Shown one piece after another: positions 16,067-64,000 of a stretch of 64,000 nucleotides of DNA. The position numbers and the translations under genes are program-made. The DNA lies in contig CAZNOH010000001.1 of NCBI GenBank assembly GCA_964574655.1, positions 535,020-599,019 on the forward strand. The letters run 5' to 3'. The stretch's first letter is position 1; the number at the start of each line of letters is the position of its first letter. Origin of the DNA: an uncultured Candidatus Saccharibacteria bacterium. Lineage in GTDB: Bacteria; Patescibacteriota; JABMPQ01; JAQVVF01. The notes beneath the pieces are model-generated. The model did no database searches. It saw nothing but the letters and a program-made list of their open reading frames with translations, and was not told the origin of the DNA.

Positions 16067-16150
16067 TGGTGCCCGGAGCGGGATTCGAACCCGCATGTCT
16101 TGCGACGGAGGATTTTAAGTCCCCTGCGGCTACCTTTTCGCCATCCGGGC
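16067..16150 (-). tRNA. tRNA-Leu (anticodon TAA), long variable arm, CCA encoded
   Basis: Reverse complement folds as a cloverleaf: acceptor GCCCGGA/TCCGGGC, anticodon loop CTTAAAA, long variable arm, T-arm GGTTCGAATCC. Confidence 0.8.
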
Positions 16151-16691: not shown

Positions 16692-17276
16692 CTAGGGGAG
16701 CTTGAGGTAGTGGCCGCCGGAGGGATCCGACATGATCTTGAGACCATCGTAGACGTTGCATCCGACGACGGTCAGCCAGTCTTCGCCACTCCGAGGCCAC
16801 GCGGAATCGACACCAGCAGGAATCATCGCGCAAGCACCGTTGTTCGCCGTCTGCAGAGCGCAGACCGGCTCGACCCCAGGAGGCATGCACCCGAAGGTCC
16901 ACGCACCGAGGCCGACGATGTTGCCGCAGATCTGGCCGTTGTCGATCCACACCTCGCATATATCGGTGTCGGGCGGATTGTTGGGCACGCACTGGGTCTG
17001 GCCCGCCTGGCACTCGTTGCCACCTTCGCCTTCGCCCTCGCAGCCGCAGTCGCACCCCTCGCCCTCGCCTTCGCCACCGTCCACCACGCCACTGTCCGTC
17101 TCACCCTCGCCCTCGTTGCCCTCACCTTCTCCTTCTCCCTCACCTTCACCCTCGCCCTCGACGCCCTCACCCTCGCCCTCGTTGCCGTTGTCCTCCATGT
17201 CCTTCTCGCGCAGGGCGCAGTTCGTGTTGATGATCGTCAGGCCGAACAGGATCCACATCGTCGCGCGCTTCATCAC
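16692..17276 (-). CDS. secreted protein with (EG)n repeat and Cys-rich C-terminal domain, in the high-GC island
   Basis: GGAGGAGG RBS; N-terminal signal peptide; GEGEGEGEG tract; 14 cysteines; GC-rich codon usage unlike the host. Confidence 0.5.
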   Translation of the reverse strand: MMKRATMWILFGLTIINTNCALREKDMEDNGNEGEGEGVEGEGEGEGEGEGEGNEGEGETDSGVVDGGEGEGEGCDCGCEGEGEGGNECQAGQTQCVPNNPPDTDICEVWIDNGQICGNIVGLGAWTFGCMPPGVEPVCALQTANNGACAMIPAGVDSAWPRSGEDWLTVVGCNVYDGLKIMSDPSGGHYLKLP

Positions 17277-17351
17277 AGCACCTCCTCCTCTCTCGTTGAC
17301 TCACCCGAACCGGGCGCTCGACTCCTTGCGAAGCCGAGCGCCCGGACGACT

Positions 17352-18416
17352 CTAGAACCGCACGCCGAAGTTACCGGCGCCGGACTTGATCATCTGCCAC
17401 CCACGCCGGTCCTCCACGTCACCCTTGAGCTCGCCACGCATCTCGTAGATGAACGACCAGCCCTCGAGCTTCGCGAGTTCTCCGACGAATCCCACGCCAC
17501 CACCGACCTCACCGCGACCGAAGTACATGTGGGTGTCGAGGTCGAACGTCCTGCCGATCAGACAGAAGTGTGGCTTGATCCACTGCTTCCAGTCGTACTC
17601 GGCGTTCAGCTCGAACCCGGCAGCACCGACCTCGTTGGCCTTGCCGTACTGCGCGCCCACCCCGATGGTCCAGCTCTCGCTGACCGGGAAGTTGACACGG
17701 AGCATGGCTCCGACGAAGTTGTCGCGCTCGGGGCTCCAGAGGTACTGTCCGACCAGGTCGTAGGTGATGTTCACCTTGGCCTCGCCGTCGTCACCCCTGC
17801 AATCCATCACGTCGCACTTCGTGTCCTTGTTCACGTCCTCATCACCATCACACTTGTAGTTTTCATTGCTGTCCCAGCACTGGACCGACGGCTTGGGCAG
17901 GCAGTCTTCCACGAGCCGGATGATAGCACCGCGCTGCCCTTCCTGGGCTCGCGTGAACATCGTCCCCTCGCGGATTCTGTTGCCGTTGACACCGATCTCC
18001 ATCAGCTTGTTCATCATGTAGCTCGCCCGCGCCCGCGCCCGAACAGCCCTGAGCGGATCCTGACCCCCAGCAGCGCGCACCTCTGCGGTGCCGCCGAACG
18101 GGGTCACGTCCTCCACCCCGCTGACTTCCAGGCATCCGAACTGAGCGGTATCCAGAGTAGCCTTGGCGCCGTTGAGGGCGTCGGTCCACTCCGTCTTCCA
18201 GCTCACGTTCTGCCCGGTCAGGTCGGCGTTGAGGAACGTCCAGATCTTCTTCTGCGCGGTTGCCCGGTCTTCCTCGGCCACGGGGGCCTCGGGAGCCGGC
18301 TGCGCGTAGGCGATCTGTCCCTCCTCGTCGTCCATCCAGAAGTAGTTGTAGGGGTTGATGTTGAAGAAACCGCAGATGAAAACCACCACCATCAGCCAGT
18401 TGATCTTGCGCTTCAT
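17352..18416 (-). CDS. outer-membrane-protein-like protein (OmpA-like segment, Asp-rich Ca-binding-like motif, C-terminal Phe), in the high-GC island
   Basis: RBS GAGGAGG; signal peptide; segment RAVRARARASYMMNKLMEIGVNGNRIR resembles the OmpA C-terminal domain; CDGDEDVNKDTKCDVMDCRGDDGE; alternating beta-strand-like C-terminal half ending GVRF. Confidence 0.45.
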   Translation of the reverse strand: MKRKINWLMVVVFICGFFNINPYNYFWMDDEEGQIAYAQPAPEAPVAEEDRATAQKKIWTFLNADLTGQNVSWKTEWTDALNGAKATLDTAQFGCLEVSGVEDVTPFGGTAEVRAAGGQDPLRAVRARARASYMMNKLMEIGVNGNRIREGTMFTRAQEGQRGAIIRLVEDCLPKPSVQCWDSNENYKCDGDEDVNKDTKCDVMDCRGDDGEAKVNITYDLVGQYLWSPERDNFVGAMLRVNFPVSESWTIGVGAQYGKANEVGAAGFELNAEYDWKQWIKPHFCLIGRTFDLDTHMYFGRGEVGGGVGFVGELAKLEGWSFIYEMRGELKGDVEDRRGWQMIKSGAGNFGVRF

Positions 18417-18674
18417 CGTCTTGCCCTCCTCATCCTCGTTCTCTCGTGTTGTAGGGTCCTAACCCTGTTGTCGGAATCTGTAGAAAGTAACATTGAATAC
18501 TAGCACAATTGAAAAAATTTGTCAACAGGATTTGATGGTTTTACCTTATATAAGCCAAAATTTAACTCTAATTTGTTATAATTATGTTTATTTGGTAAAA
18601 TAGAAGCATTAAGTTATAAGCTATAAGCTATATTTTCTTATTGCTTACAGCTTTTAGCTATAGCTCAAAAAAAC

Positions 18675-57212: not shown

Positions 57213-58364
57213 TTATTCAACGACTACTCTTTTAATCAGCGGATTAATGCGTGTCACAATTTCATAATTAATTGTATTGATCTTTTTGGCAATTTCATCA
57301 GCTGTAATATATTCTTTGCCTTGCGTTCCTAATAAAACAACTTCATCTTCAGGCTTAATATTTTTAATGTGACTAACATCTACCACAATCATATTCATAC
57401 AAATACGGCCTAATATTTTGCATCTTCTGCCTTTTATTAAAACATTTCCAATACTTGATAATTTGCGATCAAAGCCATCATTATAACCAATTGGCAAAAT
57501 GGCGATTGTCGAATCTTTATGCAAAGTTTCTGTTAGTCCATAGCTAATTGGTGTTCCTGATTTAAGATTTTTAACTTGAGCGACAATTGTCTTCCAAGAT
57601 AATACAGGCTTGAGATCTAAATTAATCTTTTTGTGAGAAGCTGAAACTTTTGTTTCGCTAGATGACCAGAGACCATACATACTAATCCCAAGTCTTACTA
57701 AATCAAAATGTGTTTCTTGAAATAGTATGGTGGCAGCAGAACAAGCCGTGTGTTTTATTTCAATTTTTTGGCCATATTCTTTTTCTGCGATATTTATTAA
57801 TTGCTTAAAATTATTTAATTGTTTTTCAGCATAAGAATGATCAGTCGTATCTTCGATATTCGCAAAATGAGTAGATGCACCTTCTAAAACTAAATAAGGA
57901 TATTTCTTTATTAACTTTATAATTTTTGATAAATCTTTTTCTAGAACTCCTTGCCTTGATGTACCAGTTTCAAGTTTTATATGCAGATATGCTTTCTTTT
58001 TTAGCTTTGAAGAAAGCTCGCCAAGTTTTTTTATTGTCTCTAAATTATAAACTATTTGTCTAAATTCGTTCTTAACTACTTCAGCTAAACGGCTATAAAC
58101 AGTATATCCTAATATAATAATTTGTTTCTTTGTTTTTTTGCTTTCTTGCTTTATTGCGATTGCTTCATCAATTGAATCAACGCCAAACCAGTCAGCTTCA
58201 GAATTTTCTAAAATTTGGGCAGTTTCTAAAAGACCATGGCCATAGGCATTTGATTTAATTATGGCCGCTAGCTTTTTTTCTTGGCCAATTATTTTTCTGA
58301 ATTGCTTTAGATTAAAAATTAAAGCGCTCTGGCTTATTTCAACCCAGGTTTTGTGATTGATCAT
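57213..58364 (-). CDS. alr: alanine racemase
   Basis: PLP-lysine motif AIIKSNAYGHG; length about 380 aa. Confidence 0.8.
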   Translation of the reverse strand: MINHKTWVEISQSALIFNLKQFRKIIGQEKKLAAIIKSNAYGHGLLETAQILENSEADWFGVDSIDEAIAIKQESKKTKKQIIILGYTVYSRLAEVVKNEFRQIVYNLETIKKLGELSSKLKKKAYLHIKLETGTSRQGVLEKDLSKIIKLIKKYPYLVLEGASTHFANIEDTTDHSYAEKQLNNFKQLINIAEKEYGQKIEIKHTACSAATILFQETHFDLVRLGISMYGLWSSSETKVSASHKKINLDLKPVLSWKTIVAQVKNLKSGTPISYGLTETLHKDSTIAILPIGYNDGFDRKLSSIGNVLIKGRRCKILGRICMNMIVVDVSHIKNIKPEDEVVLLGTQGKEYITADEIAKKINTINYEIVTRINPLIKRVVVE

Positions 58365-59668
58365 CTTTTGATTTCTTTAATTCCGCAATATCCCCACAAA
58401 ACTTCTGGAATTTTTATAGAGCCGTCTTTTTGCTGATTATTTTCCATAATTGCAATCAGGATTCTGCCAATTGCAAAAGCAGTTGCGTCGTTTGTGTGAA
58501 CATATTTATACTCGCCTTTTTCATTTTGATATCTGGTGTTCAGACGGCGAGCTTGATAATCCGTCATTAAGTCTGACGTATGAGTTTCTCGGTATTTATT
58601 TTCACTCGGCAACCAACATTCGATATCAATTTGTCGAGCATCTGGATCTCCCATATCACCTGTGCAAATTTGGACAACCTGATAAGGAAGTTTTAATGAT
58701 TTTACTAAATATTCTTGGATTGCAACAAAAAAGTCTTGTTCTATTTTAGAATTCTCAGAAATCGAAAAACTTTCCATCTCGAGCTTGTCAAACTGGTGAA
58801 CTCTTAGGATGCCTTTTGTATCTTTGCCGTAGCTTCCGGCTTCTCGACGAAAGCTTGTTGAAAAGCCTAAATAACGAAGTGGCAAATTTTTCGCCTGCAA
58901 AACTTTATCTATGTGCATTGGACCAAGAGTATGTTCCGCACTGCCAATTAGGAAAACTTTATCTGAAGGAATATAATAGCGCTCTTCCTGTGGCTCAAGC
59001 CTGGCCATTTTTTCAAATATCTCAGGCCTAATCATGACTGGGGGGATAATCGGAATAAATGGCGTTGCACTATACCCTGGTTTTATACTATCAGCAATTT
59101 CTTTAAGTATTTTGGGGTCTGTAAGTGTTTTTATGGTATGTTGTATGATGGCAAATTCTAGAAGCACAGCTTCACTTTTTAGATAATTAAAACGCGTTCC
59201 AGAAATTTTTCCAGCTGTTTTGACATCAATAATGTCTAGTTTTTCACCAAGGTCAAGATGGTCTTTTGGTTTGAAATCAAATTTTGTCGGCTTGCCTATT
59301 TGGCGAATTGGTTTGTTTTCAGATTCATCTTTGCCAACAGGAACATCTGATAAAGGAATATTTGGAAACTTTAGTAGCATTGTTTTCCATTCTTTTTCCA
59401 TAATAGCAAGCTTGCTCTCGAGATCTTTTAGTCGTTCCGAAGTTCCTTTTATATCAAGAATTGCCTGCTGTTTTTCTAAATCAGATAATTTTGCGATTTT
59501 GTCAGAAGCTTGATTTTTTTTGGCTCTAAGCTCGTCAACTTTTAGTTGAAGACGCCTTTTTTTATTATCGAGATCAATAAAATAGTCCATGTCAAATTTT
59601 TTATTGCGATCTTTGATCGCTTTCATGACTATTTTTTTGTCTTTTCGAATTAAATTAATATCAAGCAT
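58361..59668 (-). CDS. serS: seryl-tRNA synthetase
   Basis: N-terminal coiled-coil (MLDINLIRKD...), class II motifs; overlaps alr by 4 nt. Confidence 0.9.
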   Translation of the reverse strand: MLDINLIRKDKKIVMKAIKDRNKKFDMDYFIDLDNKKRRLQLKVDELRAKKNQASDKIAKLSDLEKQQAILDIKGTSERLKDLESKLAIMEKEWKTMLLKFPNIPLSDVPVGKDESENKPIRQIGKPTKFDFKPKDHLDLGEKLDIIDVKTAGKISGTRFNYLKSEAVLLEFAIIQHTIKTLTDPKILKEIADSIKPGYSATPFIPIIPPVMIRPEIFEKMARLEPQEERYYIPSDKVFLIGSAEHTLGPMHIDKVLQAKNLPLRYLGFSTSFRREAGSYGKDTKGILRVHQFDKLEMESFSISENSKIEQDFFVAIQEYLVKSLKLPYQVVQICTGDMGDPDARQIDIECWLPSENKYRETHTSDLMTDYQARRLNTRYQNEKGEYKYVHTNDATAFAIGRILIAIMENNQQKDGSIKIPEVLWGYCGIKEIKR

Positions 59669-60536: not shown

Positions 60537-61136
60537 CTACACGCCTTTAGGCAATGAGTTCGAAAATTTAGTGTTTGGTTTGATATTTGCAAGATCCTTA
60601 ATATTAATAAATCCTTTATTATCTTCTGATAAATCGATTACTGATCTAACTAATTCATGCATTTCTTTATCACTATATTTTTTTGCATAATAACCATAAC
60701 TTGAAAATTTGTTATTTTTTAATTCTTCAAAAGTGCTGACTTCTTTATGCTTTAATAAATTGCCAATAATATAACCAGTAACTCGCCAATCCATGATCTC
60801 GGATGCAATTTGTAAAAGTTTAGTACTCTGCCAAAGCTGTGTTTCTTTTATTACGTGCCAATATTTTTTCTTATACAAGAAAGATGTACCACCATGAAGA
60901 ATCTGTTTGATTTTTGGAATTAATAATCCATTCTTGAGATAAAATTTAATGTGAAAATGATTAATTGCGATGCTATAAGCGCTTATTTTAACATTATATT
61001 TAACTCTTAGTTTTTTGAATTGGTCATAAATGATTTGCTTTTGTTCTGGTTCGCTAAAATATGGAGTGTGTAAAAATGTGGAGGTTGTTAAAAAGTATAT
61101 GCAATCATTTGGCCAATATTGTTTTTGTTTGAACAT
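60537..61136 (-). CDS. putative HuH (Y1) transposase, RAYT-like, flanked by REP-like elements
   Basis: HuH-like motif AINHFHIKF, conserved downstream Tyr candidates, about 200 aa; flanked within 20 bp on both sides by the GCTTTAGC palindromic elements. Confidence 0.45.
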   Translation of the reverse strand: MFKQKQYWPNDCIYFLTTSTFLHTPYFSEPEQKQIIYDQFKKLRVKYNVKISAYSIAINHFHIKFYLKNGLLIPKIKQILHGGTSFLYKKKYWHVIKETQLWQSTKLLQIASEIMDWRVTGYIIGNLLKHKEVSTFEELKNNKFSSYGYYAKKYSDKEMHELVRSVIDLSEDNKGFINIKDLANIKPNTKFSNSLPKGV

Positions 61137-61151
61137 CTTTATAGAGAACTA

Positions 61152-61263
61152 GTGCTAAAGCCCATTAAAAATTTTGTAATCCAAAATTTTTAATCCCCTC
61201 AGCTAAAGCTGGGTAGAATATTTCTACCTGGCTTTAGCCAAGGGGTGTTGGAGCTTTAGCTCC
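61152..61263. repeat. REP/MITE-like element copy 4, circularly permuted (right half - tat - left half)
   Basis: gtgctaaagccc...cagctaaagctgggtagaa + tat + ttctacctggctttagccaaggggtgttggagctttagctcc. Confidence 0.55.
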
Positions 61264-61269
61264 ACGTTG

Positions 61270-61677
61270 TTAAAGCCGAAGTTTCAATTTTGATGATTTA
61301 TATTTTTCTGGTTTAAATGATTTTAATCTAACGGTTTTAGTTTTAAAGCCAAATTCTTTAATCTTGTCCTCTAATTCTTCTGTGTATGAATTTTGATCAT
61401 AGCCTAAAGCGATAATATCTGGTTTTTCCTGCTTAACTATCTTGTACGGATCATCTAAATTGCCTAGCTTTGCTTCATCAACAATTTTCTGATTTTTAAC
61501 ATTTGCTAATCTTTCTTTTTCATTAAATAATGTGCGATGTTTTTTGATCGCGCTAACTGTTTGATCTCGAGCAACGATTACTGTTAGATTATCGCCTAAT
61601 TTCTTTGCTTGCTTGAAAAAATCCAGATGGCCTGGATGCAAAAGATCAAATGTGCCGAAAATTAAAACTTTTTTCAT
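61270..61677 (-). CDS. cytidylyltransferase-like nucleotidyltransferase (HIGH-type; FAD synthetase RibL / GCT-like)
   Basis: IFGTFDLLHPGHLDFF (HxGH nucleotidyltransferase motif), about 135 aa. Confidence 0.6.
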   Translation of the reverse strand: MKKVLIFGTFDLLHPGHLDFFKQAKKLGDNLTVIVARDQTVSAIKKHRTLFNEKERLANVKNQKIVDEAKLGNLDDPYKIVKQEKPDIIALGYDQNSYTEELEDKIKEFGFKTKTVRLKSFKPEKYKSSKLKLRL

Positions 61678-61687
61678 AAATTTATTA

Positions 61688-62872
61688 TTAAGGCTTCATC
61701 CACATTACTAATCTTCTTTTTGTTTTTTCAGCGAAAATTTCTTCAACTTCTTTTGGAGTACCAGGAAGCTTCGGCAACCATAAAACATCTTCGTCTGTAT
61801 GTGTTGCAAGTGCTGTTGCTACTTCTGGAGTCAATTCTTTTAAGCCCTGTAAATTTAGAGCGCCTTTAACTTTTGCCAATTTTTTCGCCATATCAACCGA
61901 TATCGAAGTAAGTCCTGATAAAACTAAAGTACCTTCAATATGAGATAGCCCCTCAGCAACTTCTAATGAAATTTCAGTCAAAGATTCAAGATGCAAATCA
62001 CCTTTTAATTTGCCTAGATGTTCAGCAACTTCATCAGAAATATTTTTTAGCCCTAAACTAAGTTTTTTGTAGGGATTATAAACTAATTTTTTTGCGCTTT
62101 CAGCCGAAAGATCTTCTACTCCCGACAGATATAAAATATGAGTGTTATATTTATAACCGCCAAAACGACCTAATCCTTCAGCAACATCTTCGGGAAGAGT
62201 AGCTAATTTTTCTAAATAAAGATCAGACTCATGTGCTGATAATCTTGCGGCTGCTACTCCAGAAAGAGTGGTTACCCCGTTAAAAAATAGCCTGCTATTT
62301 CTGTTCATTCCAAACCATCTTGCAGCTTCATCAGAAATTTCGGTTAAGCCAGATAACCCTAAGGCACTCATATTACCCTTGTGTCTGGCAAGTCCTCTAG
62401 CAGCGCTGTCAGATAACGAGGTCAAACCCATGAGATTTAAATCTCGATCATGACGACCTAATATGCTCGCTGTCTCATCTGAAATTTCTGTAACTTTTGG
62501 AAATGCAAACCAACGATGGCTGTCAGCAATTATTTGCGCCATTTCTGGCGTAAGAATTGTTAATTCTTCATGATGTTCAAAATTTCTTTGTAGAAATTCA
62601 ATATATAATTTTCCTTTTGCTTTTGCTTCTTCAAGTGTCATTTCAATTCCAACGACATTAATTTTTATTTTGCCTAAAGCTTCATCTAAATTTAAGACAT
62701 CTTGTCCTGTAACTTTTTCATCTCGTTCAATTTTTCCAGTTAAATTGTTTGCAGACTCAATAACTCTTTCTGATTCAGGATTTTTTACAATTTCAAGACC
62801 TTCAACTTTATCTTGTTGAGGTTCTTTGACGTCGGCTAGTTTTTCATCAATTGGTTGTTCTGAATTTGGCAT
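61688..62872 (-). CDS. repeat-containing hypothetical protein (about 24-aa L-x-G-L-x-x-I-S-x-E-x-A repeats)
   Basis: Repeated LSGLTSIS../LQGLKELTPEVA.. units visible in the translation. Confidence 0.4.
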   Translation of the reverse strand: MPNSEQPIDEKLADVKEPQQDKVEGLEIVKNPESERVIESANNLTGKIERDEKVTGQDVLNLDEALGKIKINVVGIEMTLEEAKAKGKLYIEFLQRNFEHHEELTILTPEMAQIIADSHRWFAFPKVTEISDETASILGRHDRDLNLMGLTSLSDSAARGLARHKGNMSALGLSGLTEISDEAARWFGMNRNSRLFFNGVTTLSGVAAARLSAHESDLYLEKLATLPEDVAEGLGRFGGYKYNTHILYLSGVEDLSAESAKKLVYNPYKKLSLGLKNISDEVAEHLGKLKGDLHLESLTEISLEVAEGLSHIEGTLVLSGLTSISVDMAKKLAKVKGALNLQGLKELTPEVATALATHTDEDVLWLPKLPGTPKEVEEIFAEKTKRRLVMWMKP

Positions 62873-62986
62873 CTTTTTAAATTATTATATTTATATTCGC
62901 GTAGGTGACAAATCTTGTTTGTCACCTACCGCCCGCAAACAAGATTTGCGGGGCTACGCGAAAATTGATTACACAAAAATATTATA

Positions 62987-64000
62987 TTATAATACTAAAT
63001 CATCATTAATTTCTTGCATTGCTTTGATAGCTAAAGCAACAAAATCATTTAAACTAATTCCTAATTTCTCTACATCCTGAATATCTTGTCTGCTGATATT
63101 TCTGGCAAAAGATTTTTCTTTCATTTTTTTAATAACTGATTCTGGTTTTAATGATGATAATTTTTTGTCTGGCAAAACTAAAGTTGCAGAGACGATAAGA
63201 CCGCTAAGCTGTTCTGATGCTGACAAAGCAAAATCTAAATCTGTTTTTTTAGTTATTCCTGTATTTTCATAATTATGAGATTTAATAGCATCAATCATAT
63301 CTTCCGGTACATCATATTCGTCTAAAATATCTGCAGTCATCAAAGCATGCTTTTCTGGAATATTTTTTGTTTGATCAAAATCTAAATCATGAACTAGTCC
63401 AGTAATTCCCCAAGCTTCTTCTGGTTTATTTAATTTCTTGGCTAGTCCTTTCATGATTGCCTCTGATGCCAAACAATGTTTTATTAAATTTTCTGTTTTG
63501 ATATTTTGCTTTAACAACTCCCAAGCTGTTTTTCGGTCAATGACTGAATCTAAATTTTTGACTTCTTCAACATCAGAAGATTTTTTTGATTCTGCTTTAA
63601 CCTCTTGTCCTTTTTTTTCAGGACGCATTAATGGGAAGAAAATTACATCCCTAATATTTTCTGAATTTGTTAAAATTGCAAATAAACGATCAATACCAAC
63701 TCCAAATCCAGCTGTTGGAGGCATGCCATATTCCAAAGATTCTACAAAATCCTCATCCATCATTTGTGCTTCTGTATCGCCTTCTCTGCGTAATTTTGCT
63801 TGCTCTTCGAATCGCTGTCGTTGATCTAATGGATCATTTAATTCTGAAAAACCATTGCCTAATTCTGATCCGGCGATTAAAACTTGGAGACGTTGAGTTG
63901 TATTTTGATTTTCTTCATTCTTTTTGGCAAGTGGTGAAATCGCAACTGGCTGGTTGATTAAAAAGCATGGCTGTATTAATGATGGCCTGACTGTTTTTTT
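62987..64000 (-). CDS. lysS: lysyl-tRNA synthetase (5' end outside the window) with a C-terminal HD-domain extension
   Basis: Frame stays open to the window edge and reads ...GSELGNGFSELNDP...EYGMPPTAGFGVGIDRLFAILT (class II motif 2/3 region of LysRS), followed by about 170 aa containing H...HD-type motifs (LIKHCLASEAIMKGLA...GLVHDLDF). Confidence 0.75.
   Translation of the reverse strand, partial: KKTVRPSLIQPCFLINQPVAISPLAKKNEENQNTTQRLQVLIAGSELGNGFSELNDPLDQRQRFEEQAKLRREGDTEAQMMDEDFVESLEYGMPPTAGFGVGIDRLFAILTNSENIRDVIFFPLMRPEKKGQEVKAESKKSSDVEEVKNLDSVIDRKTAWELLKQNIKTENLIKHCLASEAIMKGLAKKLNKPEEAWGITGLVHDLDFDQTKNIPEKHALMTADILDEYDVPEDMIDAIKSHNYENTGITKKTDLDFALSASEQLSGLIVSATLVLPDKKLSSLKPESVIKKMKEKSFARNISRQDIQDVEKLGISLNDFVALAIKAMQEINDDLVL

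What the first reader, a model, noticed from the sequence alone, without database searches (positions are those of the whole stretch)
62987..64000. Lysyl-tRNA synthetase fused to a C-terminal HD-type phosphohydrolase domain
The LysRS catalytic core runs in frame to the window edge. After the class II motif 3 (GIDRLFAILT...FPLMRPE) the same frame continues for about 170 aa with H..., HD and D motifs typical of HD/HDIG hydrolases. LysRS is the main cellular source of Ap4A, and HD-domain enzymes (YqeK-type) hydrolyse Ap4A. A covalent fusion would couple synthesis and turnover of this alarmone, or provide a proofreading or nucleotide-hydrolysis activity on the synthetase.
Basis: partly seen in the sequence, partly recalled or inferred. 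Interest (0 to 1): 0.55.

Follow-up and report, generated by a model that had tools for sequence, protein, structure and literature searches.

The report
Lysyl-tRNA synthetase fused to HD hydrolase
The gene at the window edge really encodes a lysyl-tRNA synthetase joined in one reading frame to an apparently active metal-dependent HD phosphohydrolase; the fusion recurs in many uncultured Patescibacteria and in cultured Atopobiaceae, and it probably destroys nucleotide by-products of the synthetase such as Ap4A, but that activity is untested.

Summary
On the minus strand, 62987-64000 is one open frame: the last 128 aa of a class II LysRS, a 24-aa variable linker, and a 185-aa HD/HDIG domain, then a stop.

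It is not an assembly artefact.
- A Patescibacteria relative has the same 692-aa gene. Between the two, dN/dS is 0.04 for LysRS, 0.08 for HD and 0.85 for the linker.
- At least 51 protein clusters (at 50% identity) carry LysRS plus this HD. They include one with the HD at the N-terminus and RefSeq proteins of Parafannyhessea umbonata; a separate metagenome locus has a split lysS/HD pair overlapping by ATGA.
- All 48 fused HD domains keep the dinuclear metal motif H..HD..H..H..D/E.

The HD belongs to a large uncharacterised family of stand-alone ~184-aa HDIG proteins. It is not a YqeK family member: it falls below the TIGR00488 cut-off and lacks the Arg before the first His and the HDxxK lysine. 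YqeK Ap4A hydrolases are nevertheless the only solved structures its sequence profile finds.

Best reading, about 45%: a tethered hydrolase for Ap4A/Np4N made by LysRS. The main rival is a tRNA- or RNA-end phosphoesterase, because sister fusions insert PTH2-like, PheT-like B3/4, NUDIX or HAD domains.

I found no paper describing this fusion. Interest is moderate.

The parts
63617..64000 (-). C-terminal 128 aa of the class II lysyl-tRNA synthetase catalytic core. The gene continues beyond the window edge; by comparison with the 692-aa orthologue, about 355 aa are missing.
   Evidence: PF00152 E 9e-32; NCBIfam PRK00484 1e-55 and TIGR00499 2e-54, both aligned to the model end. Gapless alignment to aa 356-483 of the L002 protein. 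dN/dS 0.04 against L002.
63668..63709 (-). Class II motif 3 (GFGVGIDRLFAILT), followed at 63617-63640 by FFPLMRPE, the normal C-terminal end of bacterial LysRS.
   Evidence: Read directly from the translation. The LysRS models end here.
63545..63616 (-). Linker of 24 aa (KKGQEVKAESKKSSDVEEVKNLDS): charged, low complexity, with no plausible internal start codon for a separate HD protein.
   Evidence: dN/dS 0.85 against L002, with no indel, frameshift or stop. Linker length is 19-91 aa in other direct fusions. The only in-frame start-like codons between aa 116 and 170 are ATG at aa 125 (inside LysRS) and TTG at aa 162 (inside the HD domain).
62990..63544 (-). HD/HDIG metal-dependent phosphohydrolase domain (185 aa). 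It belongs to a large family of otherwise stand-alone ~184-aa proteins.
   Evidence: PF01966 28-30 bits (cut-off 22) and TIGR00277 41-42 bits (cut-off 27.6). 246 homologues found, nearly all 180-195 aa and stand-alone. AF2 model is all-helical with pLDDT 95.6. dN/dS 0.08 against L002.
63212..63478 (-). Metal-ligand motif region: His175, His204-Asp205 (63386-63391), Asp207, His218, His242-Asn243 and Glu263 (numbering of the visible 337 aa). This is the extended dinuclear pattern H..HD..H..H..D/E.
   Evidence: Invariant columns of alignment A1. H, HD, H and H are 100% conserved, and the last ligand is always D or E, across 48 fused and 58 stand-alone domains.
62987..62989 (-). Stop codon of the fused gene.
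62893..62965 (-). Structured element just downstream of the stop: two hairpins closed by an outer stem, with no T-run. It may be a transcript-end or REP-like element. Whether it belongs to the gene is uncertain.
   Evidence: Inverted repeats I3, I8 and I11. RNA fold -34.8 kcal/mol, z = -6.05. No Rfam match.

Best explanation
The window ends inside the housekeeping lysS gene of a Patescibacteria (CPR) bacterium. Its product is a bifunctional polypeptide: a complete class II LysRS tethered by a short flexible linker to a catalytically competent HD/HDIG domain with a two-metal site.

Proposed mechanism (inferred): when lysyl-adenylate on LysRS reacts with ATP or another NTP instead of tRNA-Lys, it makes Ap4A/Ap4N, and possibly Np4-capped RNA ends. 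The tethered HD domain hydrolyses these phosphoanhydride products next to their source. This keeps their level low in an organism with a very small genome.

Shown here: the fusion, its recurrence, purifying selection on both halves, and conservation of the metal ligands.

Inferred only: the substrate. I put about 0.95 on 'real, selected fusion with an active HD hydrolase' and about 0.45 on 'the substrate is Ap4A/Np4N or a closely related LysRS by-product'. The confidence given for this explanation (0.45) is that of the full statement, substrate included.
For: Evidence for the fusion:
- One uninterrupted frame, with both domains above curated cut-offs.
- The orthologue in L002 (Patescibacteria STF1_73, 692 aa) is collinear with no gaps.
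- dN/dS is 0.04 for LysRS and 0.08 for HD, against 0.85 for the linker.
- 51 of the best 150 representative clusters at 50% identity carry LysRS plus HD. In 50 the HD is C-terminal; in one (P0154) it is N-terminal.
- L056 has separate lysS and HD genes overlapping by ATGA. L092 and L005 have the HD 0.6 kb and 3.5 kb downstream of lysS.
- Fused and stand-alone HDs intermix in a rough NJ tree, with at least 10 state changes. The window's HD is nearest to stand-alone proteins. This fits repeated fusion or fission.

Evidence for an active enzyme:
- H, HD, H, H and D/E, plus F298 and R304, are invariant in 48 fused domains.
- This contrasts with the GlyRS-beta HD domain, where HD is replaced by SK (PMC8464048).

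Evidence for the substrate:
- The family profile finds only YqeK Ap4A hydrolases in the PDB: 8jja at E 6e-5, then 2ogi, 8wmy, 2o08 and 3ccg.
- The six-residue dinuclear motif is the one described for YqeK (PMC8177086; PMC13627108).
- aaRSs, classically LysRS, make Np4A (PMC13627108; PMC13010140).
- One sister fusion inserts a NUDIX domain (P0164) and another a HAD domain (P0136). In L002 the next gene encodes a Ham1/RdgB nucleotide house-cleaning enzyme.
Against: - No biochemical data exist for any member of this HD family that I could find.
- The family is not YqeK. It scores below the TIGR00488 cut-off and is equally similar to the RNase Y, Trm56-HD and DVU_1551 HD domains.
- It lacks the Arg before the first His that is strictly conserved in HD phosphatases, and it has HD-L-D-F where YqeK has HDxxK.
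- By fold, the best match is the c-di-AMP phosphodiesterase PgpH, and nothing matches closely.
- Other sister fusions insert tRNA-directed modules: PTH2-like DUF2000, and PheT-like tRNA_bind plus B3/4. These point to tRNA rather than to free nucleotides.
- Most stand-alone family members are not near lysS and show no conserved neighbourhood.
- One homologue sits in a Rhodanobacteraceae genome. From general knowledge that lineage is expected to have ApaH, so the family is not a simple replacement for known Ap4A hydrolases.
Confidence: 0.45

Rival explanations
1. The HD domain is a tRNA- or RNA-directed phosphoesterase. One possibility is a 2',3'-cyclic phosphodiesterase/3'-phosphatase that heals damaged tRNA-Lys 3' ends before aminoacylation, as the HD domain of the bacterial CCA-adding enzyme does. 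Another is an RNA-end or Np4-cap processing enzyme.
For: - HDIG-class, two-metal HD domains include RNA and cyclic-nucleotide phosphodiesterases. The best fold match is PgpH, and GlyRS-beta HD domains are among the top hits.
- The best specific NCBIfam similarities are to the HD part of an archaeal Trm56-HD fusion (32/38 members, best E 2e-10) and to RNase Y (31/38).
- Sister LysRS fusions insert tRNA-directed modules in front of the HD: tRNA_bind plus B3/4, like the PheRS-beta N-terminus (P0140, P0145), and PTH2-like DUF2000 (P0143, P0150, P0172, and the L005 LysRS).
- The Arg typical of HD phosphatases is absent.
Against: - There is no detectable similarity to CCA-enzyme HD models at E<=1.
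- The domain sits on a flexible linker of variable length and is once N-terminal. That is an odd geometry for a site that must meet the acceptor end held by LysRS.
- Most family members are stand-alone, with no tRNA-related neighbours.
- Nothing explains why only LysRS, among aaRSs, would need end-healing.
Confidence: 0.2
2. The HD domain hydrolyses an aminoacyl-adenylate or a related LysRS intermediate. This would be a pre-transfer quality-control role against non-cognate adenylates such as ornithyl- or homocysteinyl-AMP, or a Hint-like removal of lysyl-AMP.
For: - The HD is physically tethered to the adenylate-forming site.
- An invariant extra acidic residue (Asp207, in HD-x-D) replaces the region that contacts phosphate in YqeK. 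It could bind an amino group; this is speculation.
- Editing-type modules occur in sister fusions.
Against: - To my knowledge, no HD-superfamily enzyme is known to hydrolyse acyl-adenylates.
- Stand-alone homologues are widespread and not linked to aaRS genes.
- From general knowledge, LysRS disposes of non-cognate adenylates by cyclisation without an extra domain.
Confidence: 0.08
3. The HD domain is non-catalytic. It would be a tRNA-binding or nucleotide-sensing regulatory module, like the degenerate HD domain of the bacterial GlyRS beta subunit.
For: - GlyRS-beta HD domains are among the fold matches.
- In E. coli GlyRS that domain affects the tRNA-charging step without any hydrolase activity (PMC8464048).
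Against: - All metal ligands are invariant across 48 fused and 58 stand-alone members, whereas GlyRS-beta has lost the HD dyad.
- dN/dS is 0.08.
- Only one degenerate case was seen (P0163).
Confidence: 0.07
4. The fusion is an artefact: a sequencing or assembly frameshift or a lost stop codon has joined two adjacent genes.
For: - A genuinely split arrangement exists elsewhere (L056, with an ATGA overlap), so a single-base error could create a false fusion.
- Reads were not available.
- One related short contig (L001) has an in-frame TAA in its LysRS part, near the contig end.
Against: - The same frame, with the same linker length, is present in an independent MAG at 85% identity in the HD region.
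- 30 essentially full-length fused clusters come from many sources, including isolate genomes of Parafannyhessea umbonata.
- The linker encodes 24 aa with no stop in frame, and the HD has no start codon of its own.
Confidence: 0.02

Closest known systems
YqeK (COG1713, TIGR00488), the symmetrical Ap4A/Np4N hydrolase and Np4-decapping enzyme of Firmicutes
   Same: - A small (~190 aa) all-helical HD domain with the extended dinuclear motif H..HD..H..H..D.
- The only solved structures found by the family's sequence profile.
- YqeK also occurs fused to another enzyme, NadD (model PRK07152), which the window's HD hits weakly.
- Its substrate is the known by-product of LysRS.
   Different: - The window's HD scores below the TIGR00488 cut-off, with no hit at E<=1.
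- There is no Arg three residues before the first His (L-I-K-H here).
- HD-L-D-F replaces HDxxK.
- TM-score is only about 0.5.
- The C-terminal subdomain is different, with a conserved K-rich ...K.K.FA....R motif.
- Activity is untested.
PgpH HD domain (c-di-AMP phosphodiesterase) and other HDIG phosphodiesterases such as RNase Y
   Same: - HDIG class with a two-metal site.
- Best Foldseek match (4s1c, TM 0.56).
- RNase Y models are hit by 31 of 38 family members.
   Different: - Similarity is weak (E 6e-3, 16% identity).
- There is no 7TM or KH domain context.
- No link between those enzymes and aaRSs is known.
HD domain of the bacterial GlyRS beta subunit
   Same: An HD-fold domain that is part of a class II aminoacyl-tRNA synthetase. 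It is among the top fold matches (7eiv, 7xjy, 8ie2). Some LysRS fusions also carry PheT/B3-4-like modules next to the HD.
   Different: GlyRS-beta has lost the catalytic HD dyad (Ser-Lys) and acts in tRNA charging (PMC8464048). Here every metal ligand is conserved.
Other LysRS fusion proteins, for example LysX (lysyl-phosphatidylglycerol synthase MprF fused to LysRS, NCBIfam PRK02983)
   Same: A class II LysRS core fused to a second enzyme that uses or handles a LysRS product. The LysRS part of the window protein hits this model at 2e-39.
   Different: In LysX the partner is an N-terminal membrane transferase that consumes Lys-tRNA. Here it is a C-terminal soluble metallo-phosphohydrolase.
Archaeal Trm56-HD fusion (NCBIfam PRK12703)
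   Same: A related HD domain fused to a tRNA-modifying enzyme. It is the best specific NCBIfam similarity for the family (32/38 members, best E 2e-10).
   Different: The score is far below that model's cut-off (28 against 434 bits), the partner enzyme is different, and the role of that HD domain is also unknown to me.

Membership tests
Class II lysyl-tRNA synthetase (LysS) | Class II D/K/N catalytic core (PF00152) above the gathering score, ending with motif 3 | tested here: met
   110.8 bits against a cut-off of 25, model positions 190-307 of 308. Motif 3 GFGVGIDRLFAILT is read in the translation.
Class II lysyl-tRNA synthetase (LysS) | Full-length equivalog score (TIGR00499 >= 427.6 bits), N-terminal OB anticodon-binding domain, motifs 1 and 2 | tested here: inconclusive
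   Only the last 128 aa lie in the window, giving 185 bits aligned to model positions 372-496 of 496. The collinear 692-aa orthologue L002 supplies the missing N-terminal part, which matches the LysRS of other loci by tblastn but was not scanned against Pfam. Full-length fused homologues have tRNA_anti-codon plus tRNA-synt_2.
HD superfamily (PF01966) / HDIG (TIGR00277) | Profile match above curated cut-offs | tested here: met
   PF01966 28.3-29.8 bits (cut-off 22); TIGR00277 40.7-42.2 bits (cut-off 27.6). All 38 members of A1 match HDIG.
HD superfamily (PF01966) / HDIG (TIGR00277) | Conserved metal ligands H...HD...D on an all-alpha fold | tested here: met
   His175, His204-Asp205 and Glu263 (D or E in all members) are invariant. 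The AF2 model is all-helical, pLDDT 95.6. Top Foldseek hits are HD-domain proteins at probability 1.0, but with weak E-values.
YqeK Ap4A hydrolase family (COG1713 / TIGR00488) | Match to the family model at or near its cut-off | tested here: not met
   The window protein has no TIGR00488 hit at E<=1. 25 of 38 family members hit it weakly (best E 8e-8), no better than RNase Y, Trm56-HD or DVU_1551 models.
YqeK Ap4A hydrolase family (COG1713 / TIGR00488) | Extended dinuclear motif H..HD..H..H..D (H21, H50, D51, H83, H109, D127 in YqeK) | tested here: met
   His175, His204, Asp205, His218, His242 and Glu263. YqeK ligands are taken from PMC13627108 and PMC8177086.
YqeK Ap4A hydrolase family (COG1713 / TIGR00488) | Strictly conserved Arg about 3 residues before the first His (R18), and the phosphate-binding Lys of HDxxK (K54) | tested here: not met
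   The sequence is N-L-I-K-H, with Lys at -1 and Leu at -3. It has HD-L-D-F with an invariant Asp at +2 and an aromatic residue where YqeK has Lys. Features are from PMC8177086 and PMC13627108.
YqeK Ap4A hydrolase family (COG1713 / TIGR00488) | Symmetrical hydrolysis of Ap4A to 2 ADP | not testable with these tools
   Needs an enzyme assay.
Non-catalytic aaRS-associated HD domain (GlyRS beta type) | Loss of the HD dyad (Ser-Lys in E. coli GlyRS beta) | tested here: not met
   The HD dyad and all other ligands are retained in the window and in 48 of 48 scored fused domains. The GlyRS feature is from PMC8464048.

The most novel reading that the evidence does not exclude
The ~184-aa HDIG family defined here is a third, non-orthologous class of bacterial Ap4A/Np4N (and possibly Np4-cap) hydrolases, beside ApaH and YqeK. 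In Patescibacteria and Atopobiaceae it has been repeatedly welded to the enzyme that makes these nucleotides.

More broadly, LysRS in CPR bacteria would be a hub carrying interchangeable C-terminal clean-up modules: HD, NUDIX, HAD, PTH2-like DUF2000 and PheT-like B3/4. Together these would recycle tRNA-Lys and remove adenylate-derived by-products.
Probability: 0.3. Interest if true: 0.7.

Novelty: new variant of a known kind. Interest (0 to 1): 0.5.

Why it matters
If the HD domain degrades Ap4A/Np4N, the fusion would be the first case of the main Ap4A source and an Ap4A sink sharing one polypeptide. That bears on a long-running question: is Ap4A a signal, or a damage metabolite that cells work to remove?

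It would also assign a function, by Rosetta-stone logic, to a widespread uncharacterised HDIG family with hundreds of stand-alone members across many phyla.

The fusion occurs in a cultured genus (Parafannyhessea), so the idea can be tested directly.

Independently of the substrate, the range of hydrolase modules appended to LysRS in CPR genomes is an under-described feature of their translation apparatus. These proteins are all annotated simply as 'lysine--tRNA ligase'.

Tried and rejected
- A single-sequence PDB search with the HD domain gave only chance hits. The profile search was needed.
- Foldseek of a confident model found no close structure (all E > 1e-3), so the fold does not settle the substrate.
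- Contexts of nine stand-alone homologues (L003, L004, L006-L009, L011, L013-L015) and clustering of neighbours over about 80 loci with a called HD ORF showed no conserved partner. The exceptions were occasional lysS and serS in CPR-like loci and an SbcC-like gene in 8 loci, so guilt by association beyond lysS failed.
- PADLOC gave no defence-system hit, and Rfam found nothing near the gene.
- Six literature searches and targeted reading of YqeK, HD-superfamily and GlyRS papers found no description of a LysRS-HD fusion. One search was rejected for syntax, and Minazzato et al. 2020 is not held.
- I considered a separately translated HD from an internal start. I rejected it because there is no suitable start codon in or near the linker.
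- I considered a pseudogene or artefact. I rejected it on dN/dS and on recurrence.
Full report
**What is in the sequence.**
The feature lies on the minus strand. Translating window:62987-64000:- gives 337 sense codons followed by a stop at 62987-62989, and the frame runs off the window at 64000.
- Residues 1-128 are the C-terminal end of a class II lysyl-tRNA synthetase. PF00152 gives E 9e-32. NCBIfam PRK00484 and TIGR00499 give 1e-55 and 2e-54, each aligned up to the last model position. Motif 3 (GFGVGIDRLFAILT) and the usual C-terminal FFPLMRPE are present.
- Residues 129-152 are a charged linker.
- Residues 153-337 match HD (PF01966, 28-30 bits, cut-off 22) and HDIG (TIGR00277, 41-42 bits, cut-off 27.6).

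The appended part is 24 aa of linker plus about 185 aa of domain, not about 170 aa.

**Is the fusion real?**
- A GTDB scan found a close relative, the Patescibacteria group bacterium MAG STF1_73 (L002; 85% identity in the linker plus HD region). Its 692-aa LysRS-HD gene aligns to all 337 visible residues without a gap. About 355 N-terminal residues are therefore missing from the window.
- Between the two genes, dN/dS is 0.04 for the LysRS part, 0.08 for the HD domain and 0.85 for the linker. The linker has no indel, stop or frameshift. Both halves are under strong purifying selection, and the linker drifts freely but stays in frame.
- There is no start codon from which the HD could be made separately.
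- An exhaustive search of 1.84 billion representatives returned 51 clusters with both domains among the best 150. Of these, 30 are essentially full length. Fifty have the HD C-terminal and one (P0154) has it N-terminal.
- Source names place them in Candidatus Parcubacteria, Candidatus Peregrinibacteria and 'Patescibacteria group'. Cultured Atopobiaceae also carry the fusion (Parafannyhessea umbonata, WP_078687421.1 and WP_091008991.1). All are annotated simply as lysine--tRNA ligase.
- An artefact is therefore very unlikely for the architecture. For this assembly, only reads could give formal proof.

**What the HD domain is.**
- It belongs to a large family of stand-alone proteins of about 184 aa, labelled 'HDIG domain-containing metalloprotein'. 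The search gave 246 hits, with up to 59% identity to the window's domain.
- In an alignment of 38 members the invariant residues are H, HD, D, H, HN, G, P, F and R.
- Across 48 fused and 58 free domains, the pattern H..HD..H..H..(D/E) is fully conserved, and so are a Phe and an Arg in a Lys-rich C-terminal subdomain.
- This is the six-ligand pattern regarded as diagnostic of a two-metal site. It is seen in YqeK and in HD phosphodiesterases (PMC8177086; PMC13627108).
- The domain therefore looks like an active enzyme. The HD domain of GlyRS beta, by contrast, has lost the HD dyad (PMC8464048).

**Is it YqeK-type?** Only loosely.
- For: a profile of the family finds five sequences in the PDB, and all five are YqeK proteins (8jja at E 6e-5, then 2ogi, 8wmy, 2o08, 3ccg).
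- Against:
  - The window protein does not hit the YqeK model TIGR00488 at E<=1. Family members hit it no better than they hit the HD parts of RNase Y, an archaeal Trm56-HD fusion or DVU_1551.
  - The Arg that precedes the first His in all HD phosphatases is absent (N-L-I-K-H here).
  - YqeK's phosphate-binding HDxxK is HD-L-D-F here.
  - A confident AF2 model (pLDDT 95.6) has no close structural neighbour. PgpH (TM 0.56), YqeK/SP1746 (about 0.49) and GlyRS-beta HD (about 0.51) are all distant.
- I therefore file it as a distinct, uncharacterised HDIG family, not as a YqeK family member.

**Evidence for a functional link with LysRS.** Besides the many C-terminal fusions:
- One cluster has the permuted order, HD then LysRS (P0154).
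- L056 has separate lysS and HD genes whose stop and start overlap as ATGA.
- L092 has lysS, a small membrane ORF, then the HD.
- L005 (Candidatus Dojkabacteria) has the HD 3.5 kb downstream of lysS on the same strand.
- In a rough NJ tree, fused and free HD domains are interleaved, with at least 10 changes of state. The window's domain groups with free proteins. This suggests repeated fusion or fission, although the tree has no support values.
- Most free members, however, are not near lysS and share no conserved neighbours.

**Sister architectures.** Seven clusters carry an extra domain between LysRS and the HD.
- HAD in P0136.
- NUDIX in P0164.
- tRNA_bind plus B3/4, resembling the N-terminus of PheRS beta, in P0140. 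B3/4 alone in P0145.
- DUF2000 in P0143, P0150 and P0172.

A modest-confidence model of the DUF2000 insert (pLDDT 62.7, pTM 0.62) matches Atu0240 (2gax, E 2e-8, TM 0.70) and then PTH2-type peptidyl-tRNA hydrolases. The L005 LysRS carries DUF2000 at its own C-terminus, with a HAD gene next to it. In L002 the gene after lysS-HD encodes a Ham1/RdgB house-cleaning NTPase.

LysRS in these lineages therefore collects hydrolases of two kinds. Some are nucleotide-directed (HD, NUDIX, HAD, and Ham1 nearby). Others are tRNA-ester-directed (PTH2-like, B3/4).

**Most likely mechanism.**
- LysRS is the classical producer of Ap4A, and aaRSs in general produce Np4A (PMC13627108; PMC13010140).
- A tethered two-metal HD hydrolase whose nearest characterised sequence relatives are Ap4A hydrolases is most simply read as a local sink for these by-products, and possibly for Np4-capped RNA ends.
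- I give this about 0.45.
- The main rival, at about 0.2, is a tRNA- or RNA-end phosphoesterase. It is favoured by the tRNA-directed sister modules, the phosphodiesterase-like features and the Trm56-HD similarity.
- Smaller rivals are aminoacyl-adenylate hydrolysis (0.08), a non-catalytic regulatory or tRNA-binding role (0.07) and an artefact (0.02).

**Novelty.**
- I found no paper describing this fusion in six searches and targeted reading.
- The proteins are already in public databases under a generic name.
- It is best described as a new variant of a known kind: an aaRS with an appended accessory hydrolase, using an uncharacterised branch of the HD superfamily.
- Interest is moderate (0.5). 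The finding is real, recurrent and testable in a cultured organism, and it bears on Ap4A biology, but its function is still inferred.

Noticed in passing
window 16700-18500: A 1.8-kb island of 56-66% G+C sits in a genome of about 31% G+C, some 550 bases from tRNA-Leu(taa) at 16067-16150 (-). Minus-strand ORFs inside it are 17352-18416 (354 aa, with a signal-peptide-like start) and 16692-17276 (194 aa, with GEGEGE repeats and a Cys-rich tail). It may be a foreign insertion at a tRNA gene or an assembly chimera.
   Followed up: partly
window 62893-62965: A strongly structured element lies between the lysS-HD stop and the next gene. Two perfect hairpins are closed by an outer stem. The RNA fold is -34.8 kcal/mol with z = -6.05. 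There is no T-run and no Rfam match.
   Followed up: partly
window 60537-61136 (-) and 61154-61277: A 199-aa ORF matches the IS200-like Y1 transposase family (PF01797, 24 bits). It sits next to a cluster of G+C-rich palindromes (for example CCCCTCAGCTAAAGCTGGGTAG / CTACCTGGCTTTAGCCAAGGGG). This may be a REP/RAYT-like pair. The ORF interrupts the gene order seen in the relative L002.
   Followed up: partly
window 61688-62872 (-): A 394-aa internally repetitive ORF lies directly downstream of lysS-HD. It has no credible Pfam, NCBIfam or PADLOC match. At the same position the relative L002 has a Ham1/RdgB gene instead.
   Followed up: partly
L005:943-2949 and neighbours (Candidatus Dojkabacteria JACPFP010000003.1): The LysRS here carries a C-terminal DUF2000 domain instead of an HD. 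It is followed by a HAD hydrolase gene, and further on by a free HD gene and then serS. A model of DUF2000 inserts from related fusions resembles PTH2 peptidyl-tRNA hydrolases.
   Followed up: yes
proteins P0160, P0164, P0197 (fused LysRS-HD representatives): These sequences have Trp where LysRS has invariant Gly (for example EHWFPPMTWNGMGIDR). This suggests genomes that read UGA as Gly (code 25, Gracilibacteria/Absconditabacteria) but were translated with UGA as Trp. It would extend the fusion to those lineages.
   Followed up: no
L056:330-520: A split version of the fusion: lysS ends ...FPTMRPKK-TGA and the HD gene starts at the overlapping ATG (ATGA). One base separates this arrangement from a fused frame.
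   Followed up: yes
L001:48-50: The only other fused hit in the word-indexed search (P0001, 64% identity) has an in-frame TAA in its LysRS part, 16 codons from the end of a 1029-bp contig. It is either a sequencing error at the contig end or a decaying copy.
   Followed up: partly
window 58361-59668 (-); L005:7256-8524; L092:6438-7769: serS lies within a few kb of the lysS/HD genes in the window and in several CPR-like loci. SerRS-like proteins were a recurrent neighbour family of the HD gene (5 of about 80 loci with a called HD ORF). This may simply be lineage synteny.
   Followed up: partly
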